A stretch of 46,903 nucleotides of DNA, taken from Candidatus Daviesbacteria bacterium RIFCSPHIGHO2_02_FULL_39_12 (GTDB lineage Bacteria > Patescibacteriota > Microgenomatia > Daviesbacterales > UBA10151). The stretch's first letter is position 1. Each line of letters begins with the position of its first letter. Where the stretch lies: NCBI GenBank assembly GCA_001777055.1, contig MFCX01000036.1, forward strand, positions 1-46,903, in the 5' to 3' direction. The translations under genes were made by a program, and so were the position numbers. Below are positions 5,238-38,343 of this stretch, piece by piece. The notes below the pieces were generated by a model, which saw nothing but the letters and a program-made list of their open reading frames with translations, was not told where the DNA came from and did not search any database.

Positions 5238-6364
5238 GTACTAACCTACCGGATCCAAAAGAATTTGTAGACCCCAACCAGCCTCCTTTGATATATGAAA
5301 TTGAAAAAAGCTGGGAAGAGGTAATTTCTAAACCTCCTGTATGGCTTTCCCATAAATTCCCTCCGCTTCCAATTGAAGCAAAGTATGAATTTTTGGGGCA
5401 CAAGTTAATTTCCCCTATTGCCATTGCTGCAGGCCCGGCCTCCGGCAAAATTTGGACCGACTTTTATTTTAAAATGGGTTACGGAATGGTCATCCAAAAA
5501 ACCAGAAGAACAGTACCAAGACTATCTAATACGCAACCAAATATTGCCATTGTTTACCTTGACAAACCGGTGGAAGAAGACGGCTTGGGAGAAACTTTAG
5601 CAGCAAGTAACGATCCCAGAGACTTTGAAAAATATAAAAGCATGACCAATTCCTTTGGCAATCCTTCCTCTGATATTTTAACTTGGGCTAAGGAACTACC
5701 TGATCAAAGAAAGATAATGCAACCAGGTCAAATATTAGCATGCAGTGTGACTGCTACCACCCCGGATGAGGCTGCCCAAATAGTGGAAACTGCCTCTGAT
5801 TTACTAGTCGGAGCAACTGCTGCAGTTTTGGGAGGGGCTGATGTCATAGAATTTAATTTAGCTTGTCCCAATGTGACGGAAAATCCCCAGGAAGGCGAGA
5901 TGTTTCAAAATGTCAAGCTTGTTAAATATGTCTTATCAGAATTTAAAAGAAGGTTTCCTAAAATTCCTGTAGGCATCAAATTCGGAGTATACAATTCCAA
6001 AGAACAAATGAAAAAAGTGTTTGCCGAAGCAGGGGAAAATTTGAATTATGTCTCAGGGATTAATGCCTTGAAAATGACGGTCTTAACTCCTGATGGCAGT
6101 GAAATTTTACCCGGCAGGAAAACTTCCGGAGTCTGCGGCATTGCAGATCAAATAATTGCTCTAAAACATATCCGATGGGCAGCCCAAATCAGACAGGAAG
6201 AAGGATTAAAATATCAAATTTTAGGCGGAGGGGGAATTATAGAGCCTTCTGATGCAGATAGATACTTATCAACCGGCGCAGATATGGTCCAAGTGGCAAC
6301 CATAGCCTTAGCAGACCCCTTGCTTGCCTATAAATATAGATTAGGTCATCGTTTAGTAACTTAA
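5234..6364 (+). CDS. pyrD: Dihydroorotate dehydrogenase-like flavoprotein (class 1-like, with N-terminal extension)
   Basis: NLACPNV, PVGIKFG and GGGGI TIM-barrel FMN motifs. ATGA overlap with pyrC. Confidence 0.65.
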   Translation: MSTNLPDPKEFVDPNQPPLIYEIEKSWEEVISKPPVWLSHKFPPLPIEAKYEFLGHKLISPIAIAAGPASGKIWTDFYFKMGYGMVIQKTRRTVPRLSNTQPNIAIVYLDKPVEEDGLGETLAASNDPRDFEKYKSMTNSFGNPSSDILTWAKELPDQRKIMQPGQILACSVTATTPDEAAQIVETASDLLVGATAAVLGGADVIEFNLACPNVTENPQEGEMFQNVKLVKYVLSEFKRRFPKIPVGIKFGVYNSKEQMKKVFAEAGENLNYVSGINALKMTVLTPDGSEILPGRKTSGVCGIADQIIALKHIRWAAQIRQEEGLKYQILGGGGIIEPSDADRYLSTGADMVQVATIALADPLLAYKYRLGHRLVT

Positions 6365-7431
6365 TATTTACGTAGTCCGCCAGTCACTTTCACTTTGCCT
6401 AAAAGATCCAAATTATTTAAGACTTCTCCGCAACCTCTGACCACTGTGGTTAACGGATCATCTGCCACATAAATTGGCAGCTTTGTTTCTTCGGCAATCC
6501 TTTTATCCAGACCCGGGATTAACGCGCCGCCTCCGGCCAGAAAAATCCCTCTTTCCACTATATCTGTCAAAAGCTCAGGCGGAGTTTCTTCCAAGACTTC
6601 CTTAATAGTAGAAATAATTTGTGAAATGATGGAAGATAGAGCTTCTCTGATCTCTGAAGCAGAAATCTTTAAAGATTTTGGCAAGCCTGTAGCCAAATCT
6701 CTCCCCCTGACAACGGTTGCTTGAGAATCCATTTTATCCACCGGAAAAGCAGACCCAATTTCAATCTTTATATCTTCTGCGCTTTTTTCACCAATTAACA
6801 TGCCATATCTTGTCCGCATATAGGAAACAATGGCTTCATCAAGTTCGTCACCGGCTACTCTGAGAGATCTGTTAATAACCATTCCGCCTAAAGAAATTAC
6901 GGCGATTTCCGTGGTACCCCCCCCAATATCTACGATCATCACACCTTCCGGTTCTTCTACCGGCAATTTTGCCCCAATAGCCGCGGCCATTGGCTCTTCA
7001 ATCAAAAATGCCTCCCTGGCTCCGGCTGACAAGCAAGCATCCTGGACTGCCCTTCTTTCGACTTCAGTCACGCCTGAAGGAATACCTACGGCAACTCTTG
7101 GCTTGGGGATTTTTGGCAGAGACCACATACTTTTTGAAGGGTTGTTGTGAACTTTGCGTATAAAATATCGCAACATAGCCTCTGTAGTATCAAAATCAGA
7201 AATTACCCCGTTTCTTAAGGGCCTGACTGCTTCAATTGCAGCCGGAGTCCTACCCAGCATTCTCTTTGCTTCTGTGCCAATTGCCAAAATTTGCCTGGTT
7301 TTTCTGTGCAATGCTACTACGGTAGGTTCTCTGATAACTATACCTTTGTTTTTTACCAAAACCAGAGTATTAACTGTACCCAAATCAATACCAACGTCAT
7401 GAGCAAAATAGCTCCAAAACCTATTCAACAT
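6361..7431 (-). CDS. mreB: Rod shape-determining actin homologue MreB
   Basis: DVGIDLGTVNTLV, MIVDIGGGTTEIAVISLGG, FLAGGGALIPGLD: canonical MreB/actin-fold phosphate and adenosine motifs. Confidence 0.95.
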   Translation of the reverse strand: MLNRFWSYFAHDVGIDLGTVNTLVLVKNKGIVIREPTVVALHRKTRQILAIGTEAKRMLGRTPAAIEAVRPLRNGVISDFDTTEAMLRYFIRKVHNNPSKSMWSLPKIPKPRVAVGIPSGVTEVERRAVQDACLSAGAREAFLIEEPMAAAIGAKLPVEEPEGVMIVDIGGGTTEIAVISLGGMVINRSLRVAGDELDEAIVSYMRTRYGMLIGEKSAEDIKIEIGSAFPVDKMDSQATVVRGRDLATGLPKSLKISASEIREALSSIISQIISTIKEVLEETPPELLTDIVERGIFLAGGGALIPGLDKRIAEETKLPIYVADDPLTTVVRGCGEVLNNLDLLGKVKVTGGLRKY

Positions 7432-14818: not shown

Positions 14819-15849
14819 TTGAGTTTGGTACATAATTAAATTTGTACTACTCCAAAGCCCCAAAGTTTCCTCAACATGAAGCAAATGCAAGCCAGGTATG
14901 TCTGACCTATGAATGCTTTTATTCCCCGTATCCTCTCTCTTCCCAGCTTAAATGTTCTTTTTAAGGTGGAAAACAGCCTCTCGACCTCAGTCCTTTTATT
15001 GTAAATTGATTTCTTTATGCATCTCCCTTTAGCCTTTTCCTTCCAATTTTGATATGCCCCTCTAGGATTGTAGTTTTTGCCTTTATTAATCTTTTTAATT
15101 GGTATGGTAGCCTTAGCATGAAGTGATTTAACAATGTATTCCACAATATCAGAGGAGTCGTAACCTTTATCTGCCAATACATAGCCACACTTTTTAAGCC
15201 AAGGTCTGGCTTTCTTGAGCAGTGGTATGGCAACCTGGCTATCATGAGTAACCCCATCTCCTATAATGAGTGCAATCAATGCTCCGGAGTTGGCATCAAT
15301 TAAAGCATGTAGTTTGAATCCATAGCTTTCCTTATGTCCATTCCATCCTCCAGATCCTAACTCTTCTTTCCTGGAGTATGTTTTAACAAAGCTTGAATCC
15401 AGGGCTACTTTTTCACCTTTTATTAATCCCTTCTTATATGCATCTTTAACCAACCTTAGTAGTACCTTCTGGTAAACCCCAGCCTCATTAAACTTCCTAT
15501 TAGCTCTGATTAAAGTTGGATGAGACACAGAGGCCATTGAGGCCATTGTTCTATAGTCCCAGTTAGTAATCTTTTTGATTAACAACCAGACAAAAAGTAC
15601 CTGTTTGGGATACCCAATTCTTCCGCCTATAAATTCTTTCCGAGGTAGCAGTTCATCAACCAGGGGAAAAGAGAAATCCATCAAAAACTGGACTTTTTCT
15701 GGCCAATTTGGTGTAATTATCATGAAAAGCAGTTGACACCTCCATTCTGGAGCTTCCGTCTGTTTATTAGTTTGTAGCTGCATATTCAGACTAGTCAGCT
15801 GCTTTTTGTTTGTCAAGTCAATCTAAATGTAGTTTTGTACCAAACTCAA
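14819..15849. mobile_element. Intact IS4/IS5-superfamily insertion sequence (~1.03 kb)
   Basis: 14-bp perfect terminal inverted repeats TTGAGTTTGGTACA (14819-14832) and tgtaccaaactcaa (15836-15849) enclosing a single DDE transposase ORF. No unambiguous target duplication. Confidence 0.75.
14836..15816 (-). CDS. DDE transposase (IS4/IS5 type)
   Basis: DSSFV, LADKGYDS and YNKRTEVERLFSTLK give D, D and the Y(2)R(3)E(6)K signature. Confidence 0.85.
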   Translation of the reverse strand: MTNKKQLTSLNMQLQTNKQTEAPEWRCQLLFMIITPNWPEKVQFLMDFSFPLVDELLPRKEFIGGRIGYPKQVLFVWLLIKKITNWDYRTMASMASVSHPTLIRANRKFNEAGVYQKVLLRLVKDAYKKGLIKGEKVALDSSFVKTYSRKEELGSGGWNGHKESYGFKLHALIDANSGALIALIIGDGVTHDSQVAIPLLKKARPWLKKCGYVLADKGYDSSDIVEYIVKSLHAKATIPIKKINKGKNYNPRGAYQNWKEKAKGRCIKKSIYNKRTEVERLFSTLKRTFKLGRERIRGIKAFIGQTYLACICFMLRKLWGFGVVQI

Positions 15850-26552: not shown

Positions 26553-27143
26553 ATGGATGATAACAAACAGACAAAACAGACAATCAATCCTCTACCATCT
26601 ATCGTCAAATCCAACAATCCCAATGCCCGTTGGTATGTGGTTCATACTTACTCCGGCCATGAAAATAAAGTGGCTGTCACTTTAAAGCAAAGAATTGAAT
26701 CAGAGCACTTGGAAGAGAAAATTTTGGATGTACTGGTGCCAATGCAGGATAAAATTGAAATAAAAGGCGGCAAAAAATTATCAGTTAAAGAAAAAATCTT
26801 TCCCGGATATATTTTAGTGAAAATAGCGCTGGATGATGCTTCCTGGCTGGCTGTGAGAACTACCCAGGGAGTAACTTCATTTGTAGGCATGGGCAATAAG
26901 CCTACTCCTATTTCCGATGCCGAGGTTGCAACCATTGTCAAATTTACTCAAAGCGAAACCCCTGTTTATAAACAGGTATTTGGGGTTTCGGACACTGTTA
27001 AGATTGTGGATGGGCCATTTTCAGACTTTATCGGCAAAGTTGACAATGTGGATGAAGAAAGAGGTAAGGTAAAGGTGCTGGTGTCTATATTCGGCAGAGA
27101 AACACCGGTGGAATTAGATTTCCTGCAAGTGCAGAAAATATAA
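26553..27143 (+). CDS. nusG: Transcription termination/antitermination factor NusG
   Basis: [17 protein letters not shown] start, FPGYILVK, C-terminal KOW ([15 protein letters not shown]). Confidence 0.9.
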
Positions 27144-27174
27144 CAGTTATAATAATTATAAAAATTATATTAAT

Positions 27175-27603
27175 ATGGCCCAGAAAAAAATAAAAACTTT
27201 TATTAAACTAAACATCCCGGCAGCTACGGCTACTGCTGCTCCTCCGGTGGGACCGGCCTTAGGCCAGCATGGCTTACCTATTATGGAGTTTGTTAAAGCT
27301 TTTAATGAAAAAACCAAAAGTAAAACCGGTAATATTTTGCCGGTAGTAATCACAGTATATGAGGACAGAACGTTTTCATTTATTACCAAAGAGCCGCCTG
27401 TAGCTGAGATGATCAAAAAGACTTTAAGTTTAGAAAAAGGTTCAGGTACTGCTTTAAAAGAACCTGTGGGTACTCTAACCAAAGCTCAGGTGGAACAAAT
27501 TGCCAAAGCCAAGATGCCGGATTTGAATGCAAATTCAGTTGAAGCTGCCATGAAAATTGTAGAGGGAACAGCTCGTTCTATGGGCGTCAAAATAACCACC
27601 TAA
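27175..27603 (+). CDS. rplK: Ribosomal protein L11
   Basis: [22 protein letters not shown] is canonical L11. Confidence 0.95.
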
Positions 27604-27606
27604 CCT

Positions 27607-28497
27607 ATGGGTAAAACAAAGACTAAATTAATAGATGATTCAAAGTCAAAGGCTGAAGTCAAAGGTCAAACTTCCCTTCGGGGGCCCGAAGTCAAAAGTG
27701 TAGAAAACAAAAAAGCATCCAGACCTAAAGATGAGCTGGTGGAAAAACTGAAAGCTGAGCTGGGGATAGAAGAAACTTCCTCTCACCCTTCGACTGACGC
27801 TCAGGGTCCTCGCAATGACAAAAAAGGGCCGGTGCAAAAATCAAAGCCCCGTTCTAAAAAATATCAGGAACTAGTCAAAGATTTAGACAAATCCAAGACA
27901 TATCCTTTAAATGAGGCTGTAGAAACTGCTAAAAAGCTCTCTTACACTAAATTTACAGGCACGCTTGAAGCTCATATTAATACTTATAATACAGGCATCA
28001 GAGGCTTAGTCTCGTTTCCTTTCGCTTTAGGCAAAAAATTACACATCCTGGTTTTTGGAGCCAACACCTCGAAGGAGTCAGAACTCACCTTTAAGGTGAA
28101 TGGTGTTACTCTTGGCGATGATGCTGCCATTGAAGAAATTAACAAAGGCAAAATTAATTTTGATTTAGTAATCACTACACCTGAATGGATGCCAAAGCTT
28201 GCTAAAGTTGCAAAGAATTTAGGCCCAAGGGGTTTAATGCCCAACCCAAAAAGCGGGACAATTACAACAGACCTCAAAAAAGCTGTAGAAAGCTTTCAGG
28301 CAGGTAAGACAGAATATAAAACAGAACCAAAGGCAAAAGTTATGCACTTAGCCTTAGGCAAGTTAGATCAGTCAACAGAAGAATTATCAGCCAATATAAA
28401 AGCCTTGCTACAGGTACTTGGTAAAACCCGGGTCAAAAAAATAACTCTCTCCCCAACCATGGGCCCCGGAGTTAAAGTAGATTTAGCCAGTATATAG
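27607..28497 (+). CDS. rplA: Ribosomal protein L1 with ~80-aa N-terminal low-complexity extension
   Basis: Conserved part from KKYQELVK..: FDLVITTPEWMPKLAKVAKNLGPRGLMPNPKSGT, GKTEYKTE. The extension is built from repeat words and a CGTCATTGCGAG-family element. Confidence 0.9.
   Translation: MGKTKTKLIDDSKSKAEVKGQTSLRGPEVKSVENKKASRPKDELVEKLKAELGIEETSSHPSTDAQGPRNDKKGPVQKSKPRSKKYQELVKDLDKSKTYPLNEAVETAKKLSYTKFTGTLEAHINTYNTGIRGLVSFPFALGKKLHILVFGANTSKESELTFKVNGVTLGDDAAIEEINKGKINFDLVITTPEWMPKLAKVAKNLGPRGLMPNPKSGTITTDLKKAVESFQAGKTEYKTEPKAKVMHLALGKLDQSTEELSANIKALLQVLGKTRVKKITLSPTMGPGVKVDLASI
28180..28244 (+). repeat. Left copy of a 65-nt near-identical direct repeat (inside rplA)
   Basis: cctgaatggatgccaaagcttgctaaagttgcaaagaatttaggcccaag (50/50 identical to 31829-31878), one mismatch, then ggtttaatgcccaa (14/14). 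Confidence 0.85.
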
Positions 28498-28505
28498 TTA
28501 CCTAA

Positions 28506-28535
28506 TTGACAGCTCGACTAAACTAGTGGTACATT
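28506..28535 (+). promoter_or_regulatory. Extended -10 promoter of the inserted operon
   Basis: TTGACA (28506-28511), 18 nt, TGg-TACATT (28527-28535). The ATG at 28550 follows after ~14 nt. Confidence 0.5.
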
Positions 28536-28549
28536 ATTTTTTTTCCAAG

Positions 28550-30808
28550 ATGGGCAGAGAGCAAGATACTTTGGTATCAGGTTCGATTATTAATTTACCT
28601 CCTTTAGTCGATCTTCATGATCCCCGTTTACCCGGAGCCTTTAAGGGTTGGACAGATTTTAGTTTGAATCACGCCCGACAACTTAGCGGAATAGGTATAA
28701 TGAAACCAAGGCAAGTTGTTGACCTGGCACAAGAATTTTCAGGTACGATTAGTAAAGCAATTGGGGTTGGAATCGAGAGGAGTGGTCTTGCTTCTATCAG
28801 CGAAGATAAGTTGGTACAATTAACAAACATCGTTTCAGGCACGGGAAACAGGGTTATTTTTATGCGGCATGGCGAACAAAGCCCTCCCGAGTGGATATCC
28901 TCTTTAGCAAATCCGGCTTTACAAAAAATACGGATGATGAGGGATCTTTTTAACAGGCAGGATTTTTTGACAAATAACGGTTTAATAGATGTATTTGTTA
29001 CAGCCTTAGCTTTGCTGCATGTTCAAACCTCGACAGGTAAGAGAACTCGGATTTATTCTTCTGAAAACATAAGAGCAAAAAAAACAGCATATATAATTTC
29101 TACAGTTATTTCTGGTTCCACTGTATCAACTCTGGAAGGGTTAAATTGTGTCACCTATAAGGATGAAGTTGATCAGCCTCCTGTGACTGAAGAAGACTTA
29201 TTGACTGATTTACCTTTAGGTACGATGCCATGGAGTCCCCAGTTGGTGGATAAATTATGTAAAAGACCAAAAAGCGGCATGAGCCAGTCAGAAGCAATAA
29301 TCAATACAATTGGCGGGTTAGTTGAGTACGCGGATAGAAAAAATGGTAATAAATTAGCGATAGTGGTGACACACAACCAACAGGTTGCAGAGGTTTTAAG
29401 AGAAGCTGGGAAACTGGAAGACTCTGCCGTGCGTTTTCCCGAGCTGACAATGCTTATTGCACAAAATAAGAATGATCTTTTTGTTTTGGAAAAAGGCGTT
29501 TTATCTGAAAGGTCGAGCCGTCAACCTAAAACAGAAAGGAGCATGAGGAAGGTATTGGAGGTCTTCGGAGATGGTTATGAGTGGTATAAGATACGGCGAG
29601 CAGAATATCAGACAGAACAAAAGATTCCTTTCCGGGTATCTCCTTTTCCTCTGGATCTATCCCCTCAAGAAACCCAGGAATTATTGAGGATAGGTAGGGA
29701 TATTGTGGAATTTATAGATGCAGCAGATGAATTATACAGAACAGATGGTGATTTAAAGAAATTGCTTGATAGAGGAAAACCCGATTTGCTTAAGACAGGA
29801 AGATTGGCACATTACCTTTTTGTCAGACCGGATGTAATTATTACTCAAGAAGGGTTCTCTGTTTGCGAGATTGAAACGTCTCCATTTGGATTGGCTTTGG
29901 CAGAATTATTAAACAGGGCATACAGGTTTGCCGGTTTTGAGACTTTAATACCAGATGATATGTTAACAAAATTTATGAGAGAACATACTCCAGATAGAGG
30001 AAACTTAGTTTATAGTCAACATACTGCTTCTTATTCCGGACAACTACAGTTTCTGGCAGATAAAGTACTTTCTGGTAATGACAGGAGATGGAGTGTTGAG
30101 CAAGCTGGTTCTGTTTTGGATATGACTTCTCCTGCATTATACAGAGCGTTTTACCAGCATGAATGTTTAGATGATCCTGCTGTTGATAATATTATGCAAT
30201 TCTATGCCGGAAGGCAAACCCCAGAAGTTATTCCGTCATTCACGCCTCACATGGAAGAGAAGGCACTACTAGCCTTAATTTGGGATAAAAGATGGGAAGA
30301 ATTTTTTGTAAAGCAATTAGGAATTTCCTCTGTTGAGCATTTGAGAAAAGTGATACCTCCGACTTGGATTGTAGGACAAGAGCGGTTTTTCCTTCCTGGT
30401 TTACCAGATGGGGTTGAGTCAACCGAGGGATTGGCTTTGCTCTTTAAATCAAAGCGTAATTTTGTTTTGAAACAATCAGGTTTCGGCAGCGGTGGTTCTT
30501 GGGCAGAAGGAGTAAGTTTTCTGCAGGAGAAATCTGTCGTCAAGGCACAGGAACTCCTACATAATGCTGTAGAAGATTCATCCTCTTTGTATGTAATCCA
30601 GGAATTTAGGAAAGCAGAGGAACGAAGGATGTTTGATGAAGGAGATGGTTCTCTGTTAACAGAAATGTCTGCTAGGATTAGGCTTACTCCTTATTTTTCA
30701 ATGGTAGAAAGGAATTATGGACAATTGATAGCAATTAAAGCTACCGGTTGCGAAAAGACAAATTATATCCATGCATCTACTGGAAGTATAAATACGGCAG
30801 TTGCCTAA
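28550..30808 (+). CDS. Fusion protein: histidine-phosphatase (PGAM-like) N-domain plus ATP-grasp-like ligase C-domain
   Basis: N-half: VIFMRHGEQS (RHG motif), SSENIRAKKTA, AIVVTHNQQV (second His). C-half: HYLFVRPDVIITQEGFSVCEIETSPFG, FVLKQSGFGSGGSW, YVIQEF, resembling eukaryotic-type GSH synthetase or circularly permuted ATP-grasp folds. The GTG at 28526 lies inside the promoter, so ATG 28550 is preferred. Confidence 0.6.
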   Translation: MGREQDTLVSGSIINLPPLVDLHDPRLPGAFKGWTDFSLNHARQLSGIGIMKPRQVVDLAQEFSGTISKAIGVGIERSGLASISEDKLVQLTNIVSGTGNRVIFMRHGEQSPPEWISSLANPALQKIRMMRDLFNRQDFLTNNGLIDVFVTALALLHVQTSTGKRTRIYSSENIRAKKTAYIISTVISGSTVSTLEGLNCVTYKDEVDQPPVTEEDLLTDLPLGTMPWSPQLVDKLCKRPKSGMSQSEAIINTIGGLVEYADRKNGNKLAIVVTHNQQVAEVLREAGKLEDSAVRFPELTMLIAQNKNDLFVLEKGVLSERSSRQPKTERSMRKVLEVFGDGYEWYKIRRAEYQTEQKIPFRVSPFPLDLSPQETQELLRIGRDIVEFIDAADELYRTDGDLKKLLDRGKPDLLKTGRLAHYLFVRPDVIITQEGFSVCEIETSPFGLALAELLNRAYRFAGFETLIPDDMLTKFMREHTPDRGNLVYSQHTASYSGQLQFLADKVLSGNDRRWSVEQAGSVLDMTSPALYRAFYQHECLDDPAVDNIMQFYAGRQTPEVIPSFTPHMEEKALLALIWDKRWEEFFVKQLGISSVEHLRKVIPPTWIVGQERFFLPGLPDGVESTEGLALLFKSKRNFVLKQSGFGSGGSWAEGVSFLQEKSVVKAQELLHNAVEDSSSLYVIQEFRKAEERRMFDEGDGSLLTEMSARIRLTPYFSMVERNYGQLIAIKATGCEKTNYIHASTGSINTAVA

Positions 30809-30810
30809 CT

Positions 30811-31260
30811 ATGTTTGACACAATAATTTTTGACTGGAAAAGGACTTTGTATGATCCCGACCGACAGGTTTTGATTGGTGGTGCAATGGAGCTTTTGGAT
30901 TTAATAAAAAGTAAAAATCTTCTCATGGTTTTAATTGGTAAAGGTGGGGAGGATATGAAGCAGGAGGTGAAACGCTTGAAGATAAGTAAGTATTTCACAC
31001 ATATTGTGTTTGCAGAAGGTGAAAAAGATCCTCAGGTATTTCTGCCTTATATATCAAAAAATAATCCTAAAGAAACTATTTTTATTGGAGATAGAATTAG
31101 GTCAGAATTAGCAATTGGAAAAAACTTAGGTGCAACTACTATCTGGATCAAACAAGGCAAATTTGCTGTAGAAGAACCGGAAAATAACGATCAGGAACCT
31201 GATTATATTGTTTCATCCCTAAAAGATTGCTTAAAGTTAATTTCAGGGTTAGTGGTATAG
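30811..31260 (+). CDS. HAD-superfamily hydrolase-like protein with atypical motif I
   Basis: MFDTIIFDWKRTLYD (D-x-K-x-T instead of D-x-D-x-T), motif IV FIGDRIRSEL. The ATG is 2 nt after the upstream stop. Confidence 0.65.
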   Translation: MFDTIIFDWKRTLYDPDRQVLIGGAMELLDLIKSKNLLMVLIGKGGEDMKQEVKRLKISKYFTHIVFAEGEKDPQVFLPYISKNNPKETIFIGDRIRSELAIGKNLGATTIWIKQGKFAVEEPENNDQEPDYIVSSLKDCLKLISGLVV

Positions 31261-31457
31261 GCATAAACATGAGGAGAATTTATAAATAATAAAGTAAGGA
31301 TTAAGGAAAAAATTAATACAATTGTTATCCCATACTTGATAGGGAATCCATAAATATGCAATAATTTTTTAGCCTCCGTGATACAGATTATTTTGTGGTA
31401 TATTGATAACAATTCTGTGTGAGGCGATATAGATAGTTTGCTGTCTACCGTAACACT

Positions 31458-31483
31458 AAAACCATCCGTAAGGGTGGTTTTTT
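31458..31483 (+). terminator. Intrinsic terminator downstream of the inserted operon
   Basis: aaaccatcc-gtaa-gggtggttt followed by a T run (31478-31483). One G-U pair in the stem. Confidence 0.65.
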
Positions 31484-31545
31484 GGTGGAATTCCAGGCTG
31501 CTATTTACTAGAGAATCGTATATACTGCCAAATACCTGTATTCCC

Positions 31546-31759
31546 CTAATCTCCCTTCCTTACCTTACGCCACACCTGGCCCAGGTCAAACTTCAGTAAA
31601 TATAGCGAGGTTATACCAAAGACCAACAAGCAAACAGTAGTTATAATATGCATCAAGACTGTTGCAGCTGAAGCCAGGTTTGACTCCAAACCCAATACTC
31701 CTCCAAAAACCGCCAACCCCGAAACCTCGGCAGAGCCCACATAACCCGGAGCAGATATT
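31546..31759 (-). pseudogene. 3' fragment of a UPF0104/LPG-synthase-TM-like membrane protein gene
   Basis: ISAPGYVGSAEVSGLAVFGGVLGLESNLASAATVLMHIITTVCLLVFGITSLYLLKF..* resembles the C-terminus of flippase-like UPF0104 proteins. The 5' part is missing and the fragment abuts the rplA fragment at ~31760. Confidence 0.4.
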
Positions 31760-32146
31760 GTGGGAGATGAAAGCGTCATTGAATCCATCAACAAAGGAAA
31801 AGTTGATTTTGATTTAGTCATAACTACCCCTGAATGGATGCCAAAGCTTGCTAAAGTTGCAAAGAATTTAGGCCCAAGAGGTTTAATGCCCAATCCCAAA
31901 AACGGCACTATTACTGATGCTTTGAAAAAGACTGTCGAATCGTTCCAAGCCGGCAAAACTGAGTACAAAACTGAGTCTAAAGCTGCGGTTATTCATATTG
32001 GACTGGGTAAATTAAACCAACCTACGGAGCAGTTAGCAGCTAATGTCAAAACCTTACTCGCAACCATCGGTAAAACAAAAATTAAAAAAGTAACCCTGTC
32101 TCCCACCATGGGCCCGGGCGTGAAGGTGGATCTCTCCGGACTTTAA
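31760..32146 (+). pseudogene. Orphan second copy of the rplA 3' part (L1 C-terminal 128 aa)
   Basis: GDESVIESINKGKVDFDLVITTPEWMPKLAKVAKNLGPRGLMPNPKNGT..TLSPTMGPGVKVDLSGL aligns end-to-end with residues ~169-296 of the L1 at 27607-28497. No L1 N-terminal half precedes it. Confidence 0.8.
31829..31893 (+). repeat. Right copy of the 65-nt near-identical direct repeat
   Basis: Matches 28180-28244 at 64/65 positions. Confidence 0.85.
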
Positions 32147-32165
32147 GTGACTTAAGTAACCTAAG

Positions 32166-34619
<2,454 letters not shown>

Positions 34620-36168: not shown

Positions 36169-36963
36169 TTAAAATTTTAAAATTAATGATGCTATAAACA
36201 CTCCTGCTCCTACTACTACCACTGCCAACACCACATTTATAAACATTCCCATTTCAATAATCTTTTGAGCCATGGGGTTTCTGCCTAAAGCCTCCAAGCC
36301 CTTATTGGCAGTCCTACCAAACATAAATAACCCTGCCCCAACTGAAGCTACTATCACCAATCCTGCCATAAAATATTTAAAAACTAAAGTCGGAGATTCT
36401 GTAGCTGCCAAGGTAGATAAAGAAAAGAAATCTTTTAAGGAACCACCGGTTGTAGCTTTTAAACTATTAAAATGGATATTTAAAGAGACTGCAATTTGCC
36501 CTATCCCTTCAGAATCAGAAGTATCAAAATCTTCTAAAGCTGTACCCAACACATAACCTGACTTAGTAGCTTTCATTCCAACCCCAGGAGTATCTGAGGT
36601 AGTAATTAGATCCCCTTTGGTTATACCTCCATTTTTAGCAGAAACATTGACTAAGGCTGTGCCGTTGGACATTACCGGCTGAGCTCCTTCTAAAGCTTCC
36701 TCTGCTAACATTATGGCTGCTTTGGAAGTAATTACCCCCACTATATTAGGGTCATAGGCTAATTTGCTTAAAATATAATTTCTATTTGAGGAGGAAATAA
36801 TATCTCCATCTTTAGCACTGCTGTCAGTAATCGGCTTATAATTGGCTATTCCCAAGGAAGTATCCGCAGTACTAGCTTCCGAGGTGGCTTCCTCTTGAGC
36901 TGAAACAACCTGGGGAACTAAAGCAAAACAGAAAATACTTAAAACAATCAGGCAGAACTTCAT
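36169..36963 (-). CDS. Secreted domain fused to an ATP-synthase c-subunit-like two-helix hairpin lacking the mid-helix carboxylate
   Basis: Signal peptide MKFCLIVLSIFCFALVPQVVSA. C-terminus VGAGLFMFGRTANKGLEALGRNPMAQKIIEMGMFINVVLAVVVVGAGVFIASLIL resembles the c-subunit G-rich helix, R(N/Q)P loop and second helix, but no Asp/Glu sits in helix 2. Confidence 0.4.
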   Translation of the reverse strand: MKFCLIVLSIFCFALVPQVVSAQEEATSEASTADTSLGIANYKPITDSSAKDGDIISSSNRNYILSKLAYDPNIVGVITSKAAIMLAEEALEGAQPVMSNGTALVNVSAKNGGITKGDLITTSDTPGVGMKATKSGYVLGTALEDFDTSDSEGIGQIAVSLNIHFNSLKATTGGSLKDFFSLSTLAATESPTLVFKYFMAGLVIVASVGAGLFMFGRTANKGLEALGRNPMAQKIIEMGMFINVVLAVVVVGAGVFIASLILKF

Positions 36964-37658: not shown

Positions 37659-37733
37659 TTATGGCGCTCCGCTGCTTGGTCCAAAAAATACTGCTCCATT
37701 GTTATATACCCTGACATCATCAATCTGGCCGTT
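37659..37733 (-). pseudogene. Displaced 3'-terminal remnant of a LamG-protein gene
   Basis: Minus strand: NGQIDDVRVYNNGAVFFGPSSGAP*, matching the C-terminus NGQIDDVRIYNYALTVTQVKDLYNGGAVNFAPSSGAP* of the gene ending at 38347, with an internal deletion. Confidence 0.6.
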
Positions 37734-38004
37734 AAAGGGATATTTGAAGTTTGCCGCCCAGAGCTTTTGATACTTTTTCCAGAAAGGCAACCGAGGGATT
37801 AGTAGTACCTCCTTCAAGTCTGGCTATGGCAGATTGTTTGGTACCAACCTTTTCAGCTAACTGTTTTTGAGTCAGCCCTTTTTCCAGTCTTTTTCTGATA
37901 ACTTGCTCAATAATGCTGAATTCAAGTTCAAGAGCATCATAAGCCTTTTTAAGTTCAGGATCTTTGGCAAAAGCTTCTTTTTTAAAGTCCTCGAAGTCTC
38001 TCAT
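37732..38004 (-). CDS. XRE-family HTH antitoxin (HigA-like)
   Basis: LTQKQLAEKVGTKQSAIARLEGGTTNPSVAFLEKVSKAL. Follows the toxin gene. Confidence 0.8.
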   Translation of the reverse strand: MRDFEDFKKEAFAKDPELKKAYDALELEFSIIEQVIRKRLEKGLTQKQLAEKVGTKQSAIARLEGGTTNPSVAFLEKVSKALGGKLQISL

Positions 38005-38013
38005 AGTGGAGGT

Positions 38014-38043
38014 ACTATAACATATATGTTATGTGTTTGTCAA
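38014..38043 (-). promoter_or_regulatory. Internal antitoxin promoter with a 16-bp perfect palindrome, embedded in the toxin 3' end
   Basis: Minus strand: TTGACA (38043-38038), 18 nt, TATAGT (38019-38014). ATAACATATATGTTAT at 38017-38032. The ATG at 38004 is 9 nt after the -10. Confidence 0.5.
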
Positions 38044-38343
38044 GATTCTTAATTTAGCTAAAGCAGTTTTAATCTCTCTTGATGGTGTTTTCTGCGTCTT
38101 TTTAACAAATCCATGAAGAAGAACAACTTGGTTTTGGTGGAAGGTATAAAATATACGTGTTTCTTGTTGCCCTTTTGTGCGTAATTCAAATAAATTATTT
38201 CCTAGTGATTTGCTGTATGGCATACGTAACCGATATTCGAATTCTCTTAATAGGTCAATAGTTCTTAATGTTTTTGAGTAAGTGTCTCTTTCCAAAGAGT
38301 CAATAAAATCTTCCAGATTCTGGTCAAATGTTTTAACAATCAT
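38029..38343 (-). CDS. RelE/ParE-superfamily toxin (HigB / phage Gp49-like)
   Basis: 104 aa. RLRMPYSKSLGNNLFELRTKGQQETRIFYTF..VVLLHGFVKKTQKTPSREI is the typical Gp49/HigB pattern. Toxin precedes antitoxin, as in hig loci. Confidence 0.75.
   Translation of the reverse strand: MIVKTFDQNLEDFIDSLERDTYSKTLRTIDLLREFEYRLRMPYSKSLGNNLFELRTKGQQETRIFYTFHQNQVVLLHGFVKKTQKTPSREIKTALAKLRILTNT

What the first reader, a model, noticed from the sequence alone, without database searches (positions are those of the whole stretch)
28180..31893. 3.65-kb insertion in rplA bracketed by a 65-nt near-identical direct repeat and a duplicated rplA 3' end
A full-length L1 gene (27607-28497) is followed 3.3 kb later by an orphan copy of only its last ~128 codons (31760-32146). 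In the 108 nt I aligned by hand downstream of the repeat, the copies match at 68/108 positions with third codon positions nearly saturated. Within 28180-28244 versus 31829-31893 they match at 64/65, including a 50-nt perfect run. This geometry is what an integrative element leaves when it targets the 3' part of a conserved gene and brings a surrogate 3' end (attL/attR). A recent gene-conversion tract is the alternative. The enclosed DNA has its own extended -10 promoter (28506-28535), a two-gene operon and a terminator (31458-31483). No integrase is present, and the right edge abuts a truncated membrane-protein fragment (31546-31759), so the element looks decayed or non-canonical. Integration into a ribosomal protein gene inside the conserved secE-nusG-rplKA cluster is unusual.
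Basis: partly seen in the sequence, partly recalled or inferred. Interest (0 to 1): 0.8.

Follow-up and report, generated by a model that had tools for sequence, protein, structure and literature searches.

The report
Hybrid rplA with orphaned gene tail
A groundwater Daviesbacterium spliced 3.65 kb from the matching chromosome region of a different Daviesbacterium into its ribosomal protein L1 gene, which left a hybrid L1 gene, two imported enzyme genes and the orphaned original gene tail; this is a well-resolved scar of gene transfer by recombination, not a new kind of mobile element.

Summary
A full rplA (27607-28497) and an orphan rplA tail (about 31748-32146) lie 3649 nt apart. They are 71% identical overall but 64/65 identical in 28180-28244 vs 31829-31893. 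Synonymous difference is 0.14 in this core against 0.57 and 0.97 in the flanks. Twenty-seven other Daviesbacteria rplA pairs reach only 44-59/65. Independent assemblies carry the same structure.

The closest relative (L012: rplK 97%, atpD 84%) has the empty site, with rplA directly convergent on atpC. The tail of the full gene is foreign. It groups with L092 (73/83 aa), whereas the orphan tail groups with L012 (quartet sites 20:5:2). The "truncated membrane protein" is the C-terminus of the LPG-synthase-like gene that normally follows rplA in Daviesbacteria. It is 84% identical to the L092 copy and 49-64% to six others. Its joint to the orphan fragment is an 8-13 nt microhomology.

So the insert is a piece of another Daviesbacterium's rplA locus, captured by homology in rplA plus one illegitimate joint. 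There is no integrase, the cargo pair sits elsewhere in other genomes, and a second case (Levybacteria L036) uses a different part of rplA. Interest is moderate.

The parts
27607..28497 (+). Full-length, hybrid rplA (L1, 296 aa): native 5' part joined to a foreign 3' end
   Evidence: Pfam Ribosomal_L1 8e-33. The 5' part groups with the sister genome L012 (72:35 informative sites). The last 250 nt do not (26:33; Fisher p=0.005).
28111..28179 (+). Upstream arm of copy 1 (U); probably native
   Evidence: 55/69 identical to L012, against 47/69 for the other copy. Too short to be decisive.
28180..28244 (+). Core repeat, copy 1 (TPEWMPKLAKVAKNLGPRGLMPN); the likely crossover or conversion tract
   Evidence: 64/65 identical to 31829-31893 with a 50-nt exact run. 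pS is 0.14, against 0.49-0.78 in the other pairs tested.
28245..28497 (+). Surrogate, donor-type 3' end of rplA
   Evidence: 73/83 aa identical to L092/P0005, against 60/83 to L012 and 59/83 to the orphan copy. Quartet sites (A,L092|B,L012) are 20, against 5 and 2 for the alternatives. The rare PKSG motif right after the core is shared with donor-like L1s.
28506..28535 (+). Promoter-like site of the imported operon
   Evidence: TTGACA-18-TACATT with TG. The -35 TTGACAGC is conserved upstream of the homologue in L094. Nucleotide homology to cargo loci starts at 28505-28525.
28526..30808 (+). Cargo gene 1: 760-aa fusion of a histidine-phosphatase-like N-domain and an ATP-grasp ligase domain that resembles eukaryotic-type glutathione synthetase
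   Evidence: No Pfam, NCBIfam, PADLOC or PDB sequence hit. AF2 model pLDDT 87. Foldseek matches glutathione synthetases at 1.7e-11 and PGAM5/RosC-type phosphatases at about 1e-5. RHGE motif at residue 114.
30811..31260 (+). Cargo gene 2: small HAD-like hydrolase, always paired with gene 1
   Evidence: Pfam Hydrolase_like 1e-10. The pair is conserved in L006, L009, L010, L093 and L094. Motif I is FDWKRT (Asp+2 replaced by Lys) in all homologues.
31261..31545 (.). AT-rich spacer with a hairpin/T-run terminator at about 31460-31483
   Evidence: GC 0.31-0.35. The fold gives AAAACCAUCC-GUAA-GGGUGGUUUU followed by U's.
31546..31758 (-). C-terminal 67-70 codons of an LPG_synthase_TM-family gene, imported with the insert
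   Evidence: Pfam PF03706 C-terminal end. 84% aa identical to the gene that directly follows rplA in L092, against 49-64% to six other Daviesbacteria orthologues. The gene is absent next to rplA in the sister genome L012.
31746..31758 (.). Illegitimate joint with microhomology (CCGGAGCAGATAT) between the membrane-gene fragment and the rplA fragment
   Evidence: Membrane-gene homology (minus strand) ends at 31755-31758 and rplA homology (plus strand) starts at 31746-31748. L092 carries CCGGCGC at both corresponding places.
31748..31828 (+). Stub and upstream arm of the orphan copy (PGADIV + U); probably donor-derived
   Evidence: 51/69 identical to copy 1. It is of the 'SGAD..GDE' loop-less type, as in L092 and L012. 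Its origin is not resolved.
31829..31893 (+). Core repeat, copy 2
   Evidence: See copy 1.
31894..32146 (+). Displaced native 3' end of rplA (orphan, still an open frame)
   Evidence: 191/250 nt and 66/83 aa identical to L012, the best of the genome references. 57/57 aa identical to the uninterrupted partial L1 P0203. It lies 19 nt from the atpC stop, as in the L012 empty site. Only 5/168 changes at reference-invariant sites and no excess of rare residues, so the displacement is recent.
32166..32441 (-). atpC, native right flank (convergent)
   Evidence: 82% aa identical to L012, where it abuts the single rplA. Pfam ATP-synt_DE_N.

Best explanation
The 3.65-kb segment is a piece of the rplA locus of a different Daviesbacteria lineage, inserted into the recipient's rplA by homology-anchored recombination. 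It is not a self-mobile element.

Shown:
- The recipient lineage had rplK-rplA directly convergent on atpC, as its closest sampled relative L012 still has.
- The donor lineage had the usual Daviesbacteria order, rplA followed by a convergent LPG-synthase-like membrane gene. Here a two-gene enzyme cassette sat in the variable slot between them.
- The imported DNA runs from inside the donor rplA (about codon 165), through the donor rplA 3' end, the cassette and its terminator, to inside the donor membrane gene (about codon 237).
- One junction is an illegitimate, microhomology-mediated joint (CCGGAGC..., 31746-31758).
- The other lies within rplA homology, at or near the 65-nt block that is now 64/65 identical in both copies.

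Inferred route (about 55:45 over the variant listed as the first rival): the donor fragment was circularised at the microhomology. It then integrated by a single RecA-type crossover in the most conserved stretch of rplA, a Campbell-type insertion-duplication. Mismatch correction of the heteroduplex homogenised the core.

Result: rplA is now a functional chimera (native 5' two-thirds plus donor tail). The cassette is expressed from its own promoter. The native tail is an orphan next to atpC. The near-perfect 65-nt direct repeat could also mediate precise loss of the insert.

The confidence of 0.75 is for the general statement (homology-anchored capture of a donor locus segment, by either route).
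For: - Empty site: in L012 nusG is 97.6%, rplK 97.2%, atpC 82%, atpD 84% and ORF264 82.6% aa identical, and a single rplA abuts atpC.
- Xenology of the tails: the two tails are less alike (97/128 aa) than each is to other lineages (111/128 and 104/128). pS between them in the downstream arm is 0.97 with pN 0.18, so both evolved as functional genes in separate genomes.
- Mosaic: in the downstream arm the quartet (full-gene tail, L092 | orphan tail, L012) has 20 nt sites against 5 and 2, and 9:1:0 at the aa level. The full gene's 5' part groups with L012 at 72:35 but its tail at 26:33 (p=0.005).
- Two separate parts of the insert point to the same donor clade. The tail is 73/83 aa identical to L092. 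The membrane fragment is 84% identical to the L092 gene that directly follows rplA there, against 49-64% to six others.
- rplA followed by a convergent LPG-synthase gene, with 0-3 kb of variable genes in between, is the common arrangement (L014-L018, L092, L098).
- Microhomology joint.
- No recombinase in the window and no other flanking repeats.
- The cargo pair sits in unrelated contexts elsewhere.
- The core is an outlier in nucleotide and synonymous identity.
- For the crossover-in-core route: copy 1's upstream arm is closer to L012 than copy 2's (55 vs 47 of 69; informative sites 12:4). The uninterrupted partial L1 P0203 has a tail identical to the orphan tail (57/57 aa), but its upstream arm is closer to copy 1 (19/22) than to the orphan copy (16/22).
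- The recent, intact state of the orphan tail.
- A second case, L036, has a 143-nt perfect block at another position in rplA.
Against: - The donor genome itself (rplA-cassette-membrane gene) was not found in any collection. L092 is only a 73% nt relative and has no cassette.
- The 69-nt upstream arm is too short to assign. All references, including L092, are closer to copy 1 there.
- A free breakpoint scan of the full gene against L012 and L092 peaks near 27990 rather than at the core.
- A plain crossover does not by itself make the core identical in both copies, so a conversion or repair step must be assumed.
- P0203 is a short, DNA-less partial sequence. It could be an assembly chimera across the shared core, and its N-part is only 33/43 identical to the window's L1.
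- Whether these organisms are transformable was not tested.
Confidence: 0.75

Rival explanations
1. Same source and same donor DNA, but a one-step homology-facilitated illegitimate recombination of a linear fragment. The homologous crossover lay upstream of codon 165 (around 27970-28100). The microhomology joint was made directly to the recipient's rplA. On this reading the whole tail of the full gene from the crossover onward is donor and the whole orphan copy is native. The 64/65 core arose later by a short gene conversion between the two direct repeats. This is a sub-variant of the best explanation; its 0.3 is part of that 0.75.
For: - One-step HFIR with short microhomology at the illegitimate end is experimentally established in transformable bacteria (cited in PMC5361080 and PMC3240628).
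- The microhomology joint is present.
- The max-chi-square breakpoint of the full gene against L012 and L092 is near 27990 (66:23 before, 47:53 after).
- The orphan stub 'GADIVGDE' is of the same loop-less type as L012's 'GADLVGDE'.
Against: - The orphan upstream arm is less like L012 than copy 1's arm (47 vs 55 of 69).
- P0203 shares the orphan tail exactly but not the orphan upstream arm.
- It needs an extra, independent conversion event placed exactly where the full gene switches to donor type.
- The region 27997-28116 aligns poorly because of a loop indel, so the breakpoint scan is unreliable there.
Confidence: 0.3
2. A site-specific integrative element (genomic islet, IME-like) that targets a 65-nt att core in rplA and carries a surrogate 3' end. 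It has either lost its integrase or is mobilised by one encoded elsewhere.
For: - The attL/attR-like geometry, with a near-perfect core flanked by diverged homologous arms.
- Its own promoter and terminator.
- Integration of ICEs into the 3' ends of ribosomal protein genes is known in streptococci, with 12-54 bp repeats (PMC4701971).
- A pre-existing identical core would not need a conversion step.
Against: - No tyrosine or serine recombinase, excisionase, or replication or transfer gene in the insert or the window.
- The cargo pair is not associated with rplA in any other genome.
- The element would consist of both chromosomal flanks of a donor locus, joined at a microhomology inside two ORFs.
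- No other instance of this core duplication in 86 L1 loci.
- The 26-mer from the core had 0 hits in the viral and metagenome collections.
- The only other case (L036) has its core elsewhere in rplA.
Confidence: 0.08
3. In-situ segmental (tandem) duplication of the rplA 3' end and its downstream DNA, followed by divergence and a recent gene-conversion patch.
For: The direct-repeat geometry and the identical core.
Against: - The copies are not each other's closest relatives.
- The quartet analysis splits them between two lineages.
- pS of 0.97 with omega about 0.1-0.2, plus an intact orphan frame with no excess of rare residues, is incompatible with long decay of a non-functional copy.
- The sister genome has a single copy.
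- The membrane fragment has no native counterpart at this locus in L012.
Confidence: 0.03
4. Assembly chimera of two co-occurring Daviesbacteria populations joined through shared k-mers.
For: Several related Daviesbacteria co-occur in these samples, and the core is shared.
Against: - The identical structure occurs in independent assemblies from different samples and assemblers, including k=141 contigs that exceed the 65-nt repeat.
- The second junction shares only 8-13 nt.
- A chimera would give one hybrid gene, not a duplication.
Confidence: 0.02

Closest known systems
Homology-facilitated illegitimate recombination, or 'homologous recombination at the border' (foreign DNA capture during natural transformation; de Vries & Wackernagel 2002, Prudhomme et al. 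2002, Meier & Wackernagel 2003, as cited in PMC5361080 and PMC3240628)
   Same: One end of the foreign DNA is anchored in a conserved gene shared by donor and recipient. The other end is a novel joint at a short microhomology. The inserted DNA is ordinary donor chromosome, and no recombinase is carried.
   Different: Here the homologous segment is duplicated on both sides of the insert, with a near-identical core. This suggests a circular intermediate (Campbell-type insertion-duplication) or a later conversion. It is a natural event in an uncultured CPR bacterium, in an essential ribosomal protein gene, between lineages about 30% diverged.
C-terminal displacement with orphan 3' modules in rhs, cdiA and T6SS effector loci (Jackson et al. 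2009; Poole et al. 2011; Kirchberger et al. 2017, PMC5361080)
   Same: A full-length gene acquires a new 3' end plus downstream genes by recombination in its conserved part. The old 3' end is pushed downstream as an orphan that keeps a stub of the conserved region.
   Different: It is not a polymorphic toxin/immunity system. There is no evidence of diversifying selection, and the displaced piece is the tail of a housekeeping ribosomal protein. Only one displacement is seen, not an array.
Integrative elements that insert in the 3' end of conserved genes and restore it (streptococcal ICEs/IMEs in rplL, rpsI and rpmG, PMC4701971 and PMC5357655; from memory, phage e14/21 in icd with a surrogate 3' end)
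   Same: Direct repeats inside the 3' part of a conserved (ribosomal protein) gene. The gene stays intact through an imported 3' end, and the cargo lies between the repeats.
   Different: Those elements encode a site-specific integrase and use one defined att sequence in all hosts. Here there is no integrase, the ends are arbitrary points inside two donor genes, and the only other case uses a different site in rplA.
Campbell-type insertion-duplication by a circular molecule carrying an internal gene fragment (laboratory insertion-duplication mutagenesis; own knowledge)
   Same: Exactly this topology: a hybrid complete copy, the insert, then a truncated copy that begins at the fragment's 5' end.
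   Different: It is known as a laboratory tool. Here it is inferred as a natural event with homeologous DNA.

Membership tests
Site-specific integrative element (ICE/IME/prophage-like island) | Encodes, or lies next to, a tyrosine/serine/DDE recombinase responsible for integration | tested here: not met
   Pfam and NCBIfam found none in the insert. Precomputed Pfam covers 17.6-38.5 kb, and Pfam scans of the remaining large ORFs found only an unrelated DDE transposase at 14836-15816.
Site-specific integrative element (ICE/IME/prophage-like island) | Flanked by direct repeats (attL/attR) that contain the target's 3' part | tested here: met
   64/65 core with diverged homologous arms. This feature is shared with homologous-recombination products, so it does not discriminate.
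Site-specific integrative element (ICE/IME/prophage-like island) | The same att core and the same target are used by related elements in other genomes; the cargo travels with the att site | tested here: not met
   The cargo pair sits in five other contexts without rplA. No second L1 fragment occurs in the other Daviesbacteria loci. The L036 core is at another position in rplA. A 26-mer from the core had 0 hits in the viral and metagenome collections.
Site-specific integrative element (ICE/IME/prophage-like island) | Excises as a circle, leaving an empty site, within the population | not testable with these tools
   No read data are available. The predicted empty-site L1 protein is absent from the 15-billion-protein collection.
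Homology-anchored capture of foreign chromosomal DNA (HFIR / Campbell-type) | One junction lies within sequence homologous between donor and recipient | tested here: met
   The switch from L012-like to L092-like sequence lies inside rplA.
Homology-anchored capture of foreign chromosomal DNA (HFIR / Campbell-type) | The other junction is a novel joint at a short microhomology | tested here: met
   8-13 nt overlap of the two homologies at 31746-31758.
Homology-anchored capture of foreign chromosomal DNA (HFIR / Campbell-type) | The insert is collinear with a donor chromosome region | tested here: met
   The rplA tail and the LPG-synthase C-terminus both best match L092, where the two genes are adjacent. 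The same synteny holds in L014-L018 and L098. The donor with the cassette itself was not found.
Homology-anchored capture of foreign chromosomal DNA (HFIR / Campbell-type) | A recipient-type empty site exists | tested here: met
   L012 has rplK-rplA convergent on atpC.
Homology-anchored capture of foreign chromosomal DNA (HFIR / Campbell-type) | DNA uptake and RecA machinery are present in the host | not tested
   Only a 46.9-kb window is available.
C-terminal displacement (rhs/cdiA-type) | New 3' end plus downstream genes, with the old 3' end kept as a downstream orphan | tested here: met
C-terminal displacement (rhs/cdiA-type) | The variable 3' end encodes a toxin with a cognate immunity gene | tested here: not met
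   The gene is ribosomal protein L1. The cargo consists of an ATP-grasp/phosphatase fusion and a HAD-like protein, with no PADLOC hit.
Segmental duplication | The two copies are each other's closest relatives | tested here: not met

The most novel reading that the evidence does not exclude
The 3' part of rplA may be a recurrent capture site in Microgenomates. rplA is the last conserved gene at the edge of a variable slot. It may act as a shared recombination anchor through which co-occurring, quite diverged CPR lineages exchange gene cassettes, reversibly via the direct repeats. This would produce chimeric L1 proteins.

In its strongest form, a trans-acting recombinase or another dedicated mechanism would recognise conserved rplA sequence.

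Hints: two independent cases (this Daviesbacterium and Levybacterium L036), and a third co-occurring L1 (P0203) that shares the orphan tail exactly but not the rest.
Probability: 0.15. Interest if true: 0.6.

Novelty: new member of a known kind. Interest (0 to 1): 0.4.

Why it matters
- **Recombination between diverged CPR lineages.** This is an unusually well-resolved natural footprint of recombination between diverged CPR (Patescibacteria) lineages. The recipient-type empty site, a donor-type locus, both junctions and the crossover region can all be identified from sequence.
- **An essential gene as chimera and entry point.** It shows that an essential ribosomal protein gene can be chimeric and can serve as the entry point for accessory genes. 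That is relevant to how these reduced, uncultured bacteria acquire genes, and to the use of L1 in concatenated ribosomal-protein phylogenies.
- **What it does not show.** It does not reveal a new class of mobile element.
- **The cargo.** The cargo is a conserved but unannotated Patescibacteria two-gene module: a histidine-phosphatase/glutathione-synthetase-like ATP-grasp fusion plus an atypical HAD protein. Its product is unknown.

Tried and rejected
- **Donor search.** Cargo homologues from the 5.8-billion-protein search and their contigs and a metagenome scan with the cargo protein gave only unrelated contexts. An exact 26-mer from the core had 0 hits in the metagenome and viral collections.
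- **Origin of the 69-nt upstream arm.** I tried informative-site tests against seven genomes, correlation across 119 L1 homologues and a loop-indel marker. All were inconclusive. The first correlation test also suffers from selection bias, because the hits were ranked on the whole query.
- **GC3 and composition.** Neither distinguishes insert from flanks.
- **Rfam and tRNA scans.** They found nothing in the region, so there is no tRNA/tmRNA-type att.
- **Other repeats.** No terminal inverted or direct repeats other than the rplA duplication.
- **Short L1 ORFs as further orphans.** P0239/L101 is split by masked N's. P0200/L102 has a single in-frame TAA. Neither is an orphan fragment.
- **Predicted empty-site L1 protein.** It is not in the protein collection.
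- **P0203.** It has no DNA on record.

Full report
**1. What is there**

The window comes from a Candidatus Daviesbacteria genome. The L1 protein is identical to OGE24974.1 of RIFCSPHIGHO2_02_FULL_39_12.

Gene order around the finding:
- secE (26337), nusG, rplK.
- A full rplA (27607-28497, 296 aa).
- A 760-aa ORF (28526-30808).
- A 149-aa HAD-like ORF (30811-31260).
- An AT-rich spacer with a hairpin terminator.
- A minus-strand C-terminal fragment of an LPG_synthase_TM-family gene (31546-31758).
- An rplA 3' fragment (about 31748-32146).
- The convergent atpC-atpD-atpG-atpA genes.

The only long repeat in 27000-32600 is the rplA duplication, with a spacing of 3649 nt.

**2. Checking the observation**

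The two tails share 274/387 nt and 97/128 aa. The block 28180-28244 vs 31829-31893 is 64/65 identical with a 50-nt exact run. The next 108 nt match at 67/108, with third positions at 8/36.

Codon-wise, the synonymous difference pS is 0.14 in the core, 0.57 in the 69-nt upstream arm (U) and 0.97 in the 250-nt downstream arm (D). pN is 0.18 in both arms.

As a control I took rplA tails from seven other Daviesbacteria genomes. In 27 other pairs with 64-77% overall identity, the same 65 nt match at only 44-59/65, and the longest exact run anywhere is 11-29 nt. Core pS in the pairs tested is 0.49-0.78. The block is therefore not explained by the invariant peptide it encodes.

Two independent assemblies span the whole structure at 99.99-100% identity: ENA megahit k141 (L001) and JGI (L002). 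Short contigs L003-L005 cover only the left junction. The orphan ORF is on 13 contigs. The second junction shares only 8-13 nt, so an assembly artefact is very unlikely.

**3. Direction of the event: an empty site exists**

A genome scan with the orphan tail returned L012 (CAZYBP010000028.1). Its record title says Gammaproteobacteria, but its L1 is P0007, which NCBI names Daviesbacteria.

L012 is by far the closest relative at this locus:

| Gene | aa identity to the window | Other Daviesbacteria |
|---|---|---|
| nusG | 97.6% | 69-86% |
| rplK | 97.2% | 77-86% |
| atpC | 82% | not available |
| atpD | 84% | not available |
| ORF264 | 82.6% | not available |

In L012 a single rplA (568-1434) abuts the end of atpC (1446). 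The 3.65 kb is therefore an insertion into an rplA-atpC arrangement.

**4. The two tails come from different lineages**

- The tails are less similar to each other (97/128 aa) than each is to other Daviesbacteria L1s. The full gene's tail matches P0005 at 111/128, and the orphan tail matches P0010 at 104/128.
- In the D arm, the four-taxon pattern (full-gene tail with L092/P0005 | orphan tail with L012) has 20 nt sites, against 5 and 2 for the alternatives. At the aa level it is 9:1:0.
- The full gene is itself a mosaic. Its 5' 504 nt side with L012 over L092 at 72:35 informative sites, its D arm at 26:33 (Fisher p=0.005). At the aa level its D arm is 73/83 to L092 and 60/83 to L012.
- The first residue that differs after the core (PKSG vs PKNG) is already donor-type.
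- The orphan tail has evolved under purifying selection relative to L012 (omega about 0.09). It has only 5/168 changes at reference-invariant sites and no excess of rare residues. So it was part of a working gene until recently.

**5. What the insert is**

*The membrane-gene fragment.* P0005's contig (L092) shows rplA followed immediately by a convergent 307-aa LPG_synthase_TM gene. The window's membrane fragment is 84% identical to residues 240-306 of that protein, but only 49-64% to the orthologues in six other Daviesbacteria. Two separate pieces of the insert therefore point to the same L092-like clade.

*The usual neighbourhood.* rplA followed by a convergent LPG-synthase gene is the common Daviesbacteria arrangement. 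The two genes are adjacent in L016, L018, L092 and L098. In L014, L015 and L017 they are separated by 2-3 kb of unrelated accessory genes: an AAA_14/DUF4143 ATPase, GT2 plus PaaX-like genes, and an IS200-type transposase. This is a variable slot.

*The cargo.* The window's cargo pair is a conserved two-gene module found in other Patescibacteria in unrelated places:
- between lgt and an NTP-transferase/efp (L006, 85% aa and 84% nt identity);
- after an OTCase (L009);
- after SpoU (L010);
- and in L093 and L094.

Nucleotide homology is confined to 28505-31247, and no rplA or membrane fragment lies nearby.

*No mobility genes.* No integrase, recombinase, or transfer or replication gene occurs in the insert or the window.

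**6. The second junction**

On the plus strand, rplA homology begins at 31746-31748. The sequence there reads PGADIVGDES, compared with L012 SGADLVGDEA and L092 SGADKIGDES. On the minus strand, membrane-gene homology ends at 31755-31758 (…ISAPGYVG). The 8-13 nt CCGGAGCAGATAT belongs to both. In L092 both genes carry CCGGCGC at the corresponding spots. This is the signature of a microhomology-mediated illegitimate joint between two coding sequences, not a designed element end.

**7. Mechanism**

*Established.* A segment of an L092-like donor locus was inserted into an L012-like recipient rplA. The segment comprises rplA codon about 165 to the stop, the cassette, the terminator, and the last about 70 codons of the membrane gene.

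*Two routes fit.*
- **M1.** The fragment circularised at the microhomology and integrated by a single crossover in the core. On this route the full gene's U arm is native and the orphan's U arm is donor.
- **M2.** A linear fragment integrated by HFIR. The homologous crossover lay upstream of codon 165, and the microhomology joint was made directly to the recipient. On this route the orphan copy is wholly native and the core identity comes from a later conversion.

*Evidence for M1.*
- The full gene's U arm is closer to L012 (55 vs 47 of 69; informative sites 12:4).
- The core coincides with the switch to donor type.
- P0203, a partial but uninterrupted L1 from a sister sample (SRR3989344), has a tail 57/57 aa identical to the orphan tail. 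Its U arm matches the full gene at 19/22 and the orphan at 16/22.

*Evidence for M2.*
- It needs only one established step for integration.
- A free breakpoint scan peaks near 27990, though that region aligns poorly.

*Limits.* P0203 has no DNA on record and could be a chimera. All references are closer to the full gene's U arm, so that arm is not decisive.

Either route needs a mismatch-repair or conversion step to make the core identical. I put M1:M2 at roughly 55:45 within a combined confidence of 0.75.

**8. A second case**

In Levybacteria locus L036, a full rplA (5554-6378) is followed 4.68 kb later by an rplA 3' fragment (10873-11058).
- A 143-nt perfect block (6220-6362 = 10900-11042) is flanked by a left arm with five synonymous differences and a diverged last 16 nt.
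- The insert encodes surface proteins (WxL-interacting/LysM) and no recombinase.
- The perfect block lies at codons about 222-270 of 274, not at the window's core.

This argues against a common att site. It favours homology-driven events anchored in rplA, which in these genomes is the last conserved gene before variable DNA.

**9. Cargo function (side result)**

- The 760-aa protein has no Pfam, NCBIfam, PADLOC or PDB sequence match.
- An AlphaFold model built from 43 homologues has a mean pLDDT of 87.
- The C-terminal about 420 aa resemble eukaryotic-type glutathione synthetase and glutathionylspermidine synthetase ATP-grasp ligases (Foldseek 1.7e-11). The N-terminal domain resembles PGAM-type histidine phosphatases (about 1e-5) and carries an RHGE motif.
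- Homologues occur as the ligase domain alone (about 420 aa), or fused to PEP-utilising enzyme domains.
- The HAD-like partner has a conserved FDWKRT motif, with Lys in place of the second catalytic Asp.

**10. Comparison with known systems, and verdict**

The structure works like homology-facilitated capture of foreign DNA. It looks like the C-terminal displacement known from rhs, cdiA and T6SS effector loci (PMC5361080). It resembles ICE/IME integration into the 3' ends of ribosomal protein genes (PMC4701971) only in geometry, and the defining recombinase and common att site were tested and not met.

It is a new, well-documented member of a known kind of event, in an unusual gene and phylum. 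Interest is moderate (0.4). The reading that rplA is a recurrent cassette-capture hotspot in Microgenomates remains open, at about 0.15.

Noticed in passing
L036:5554-11058 (MFNL01000004.1, Candidatus Levybacteria RIFCSPHIGHO2_01_FULL_37_17): A second, independent rplA 3'-end duplication brackets a 4.68-kb insert of surface-protein genes. It has a 143-nt perfect block (6220-6362 = 10900-11042), diverged arms on both sides and no recombinase. The core lies at a different position in rplA than in the window.
   Followed up: partly
window:28526-31260; also L006, L009, L010, L093, L094: An unannotated but conserved two-gene module of Patescibacteria. Gene 1 is a histidine-phosphatase-like domain fused to a glutathione-synthetase-like ATP-grasp ligase. 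It also occurs as the ligase alone, or fused to PPDK_N/PEP-utilising domains (P0141, P0150). Gene 2 is a small HAD-like protein whose motif I is FDWKRT, with Lys replacing the second catalytic Asp. The product is unknown.
   Followed up: partly
P0203 (SRR3989344_3495095, 147 aa, no DNA on record): A partial uninterrupted L1 from a sister sample. Its tail is 57/57 aa identical to the orphan fragment. Its N-part is only 33/43 identical to the window's L1, and it lacks the loop. It is either a third lineage sharing that tail through recombination, or an assembly chimera across the shared core.
   Followed up: partly
window:27607-27888 and 28060-28110: Daviesbacteria L1 carries a Lys/Glu-rich N-terminal extension of about 94 aa that is highly variable between lineages. 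The window's L1 also has a 7-aa loop insertion (ELTFKVNGVT region), shared by only 11 of 119 homologues.
   Followed up: partly
window:28497-32166; L012-L018, L092, L098: rplJ-rplL do not follow rplA in these genomes. The usual downstream neighbour is a convergent LPG_synthase_TM gene, with a variable slot of 0-3 kb in between. Only the window and L012 have atpC there. The window holds no full-length LPG_synthase_TM gene.
   Followed up: partly
window:31748-31762: A GGAG lies 8 nt upstream of the GTG at 31760. The orphan L1 fragment could therefore be translated if it is transcribed, although a hairpin terminator lies upstream at about 31460-31483.
   Followed up: no
L102:140-1036 and L103: Another Daviesbacterium has a single in-frame TAA inside an otherwise intact rplA (…LPFVSGK*LRILAFG…), seen in two assemblies. 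It could be a sequencing error, a pseudogene or readthrough.
   Followed up: no
L012 and many other loci: The record titles of 'binchicken' MAGs call clear Patescibacteria contigs 'uncultured Gammaproteobacteria' or 'uncultured Pseudomonadales'. The titles are unreliable for taxonomy.
   Followed up: no
window:14836-16385 and 37732-38343: A DDE_Tnp_1 transposase lies next to two tRNA-Thr genes. An HTH/Gp49 (HigB-like) toxin-antitoxin pair and large LamG-domain surface proteins lie downstream of the atp operon. ORF 36169-36963 has only a C-terminal subunit-c-like match.
   Followed up: no
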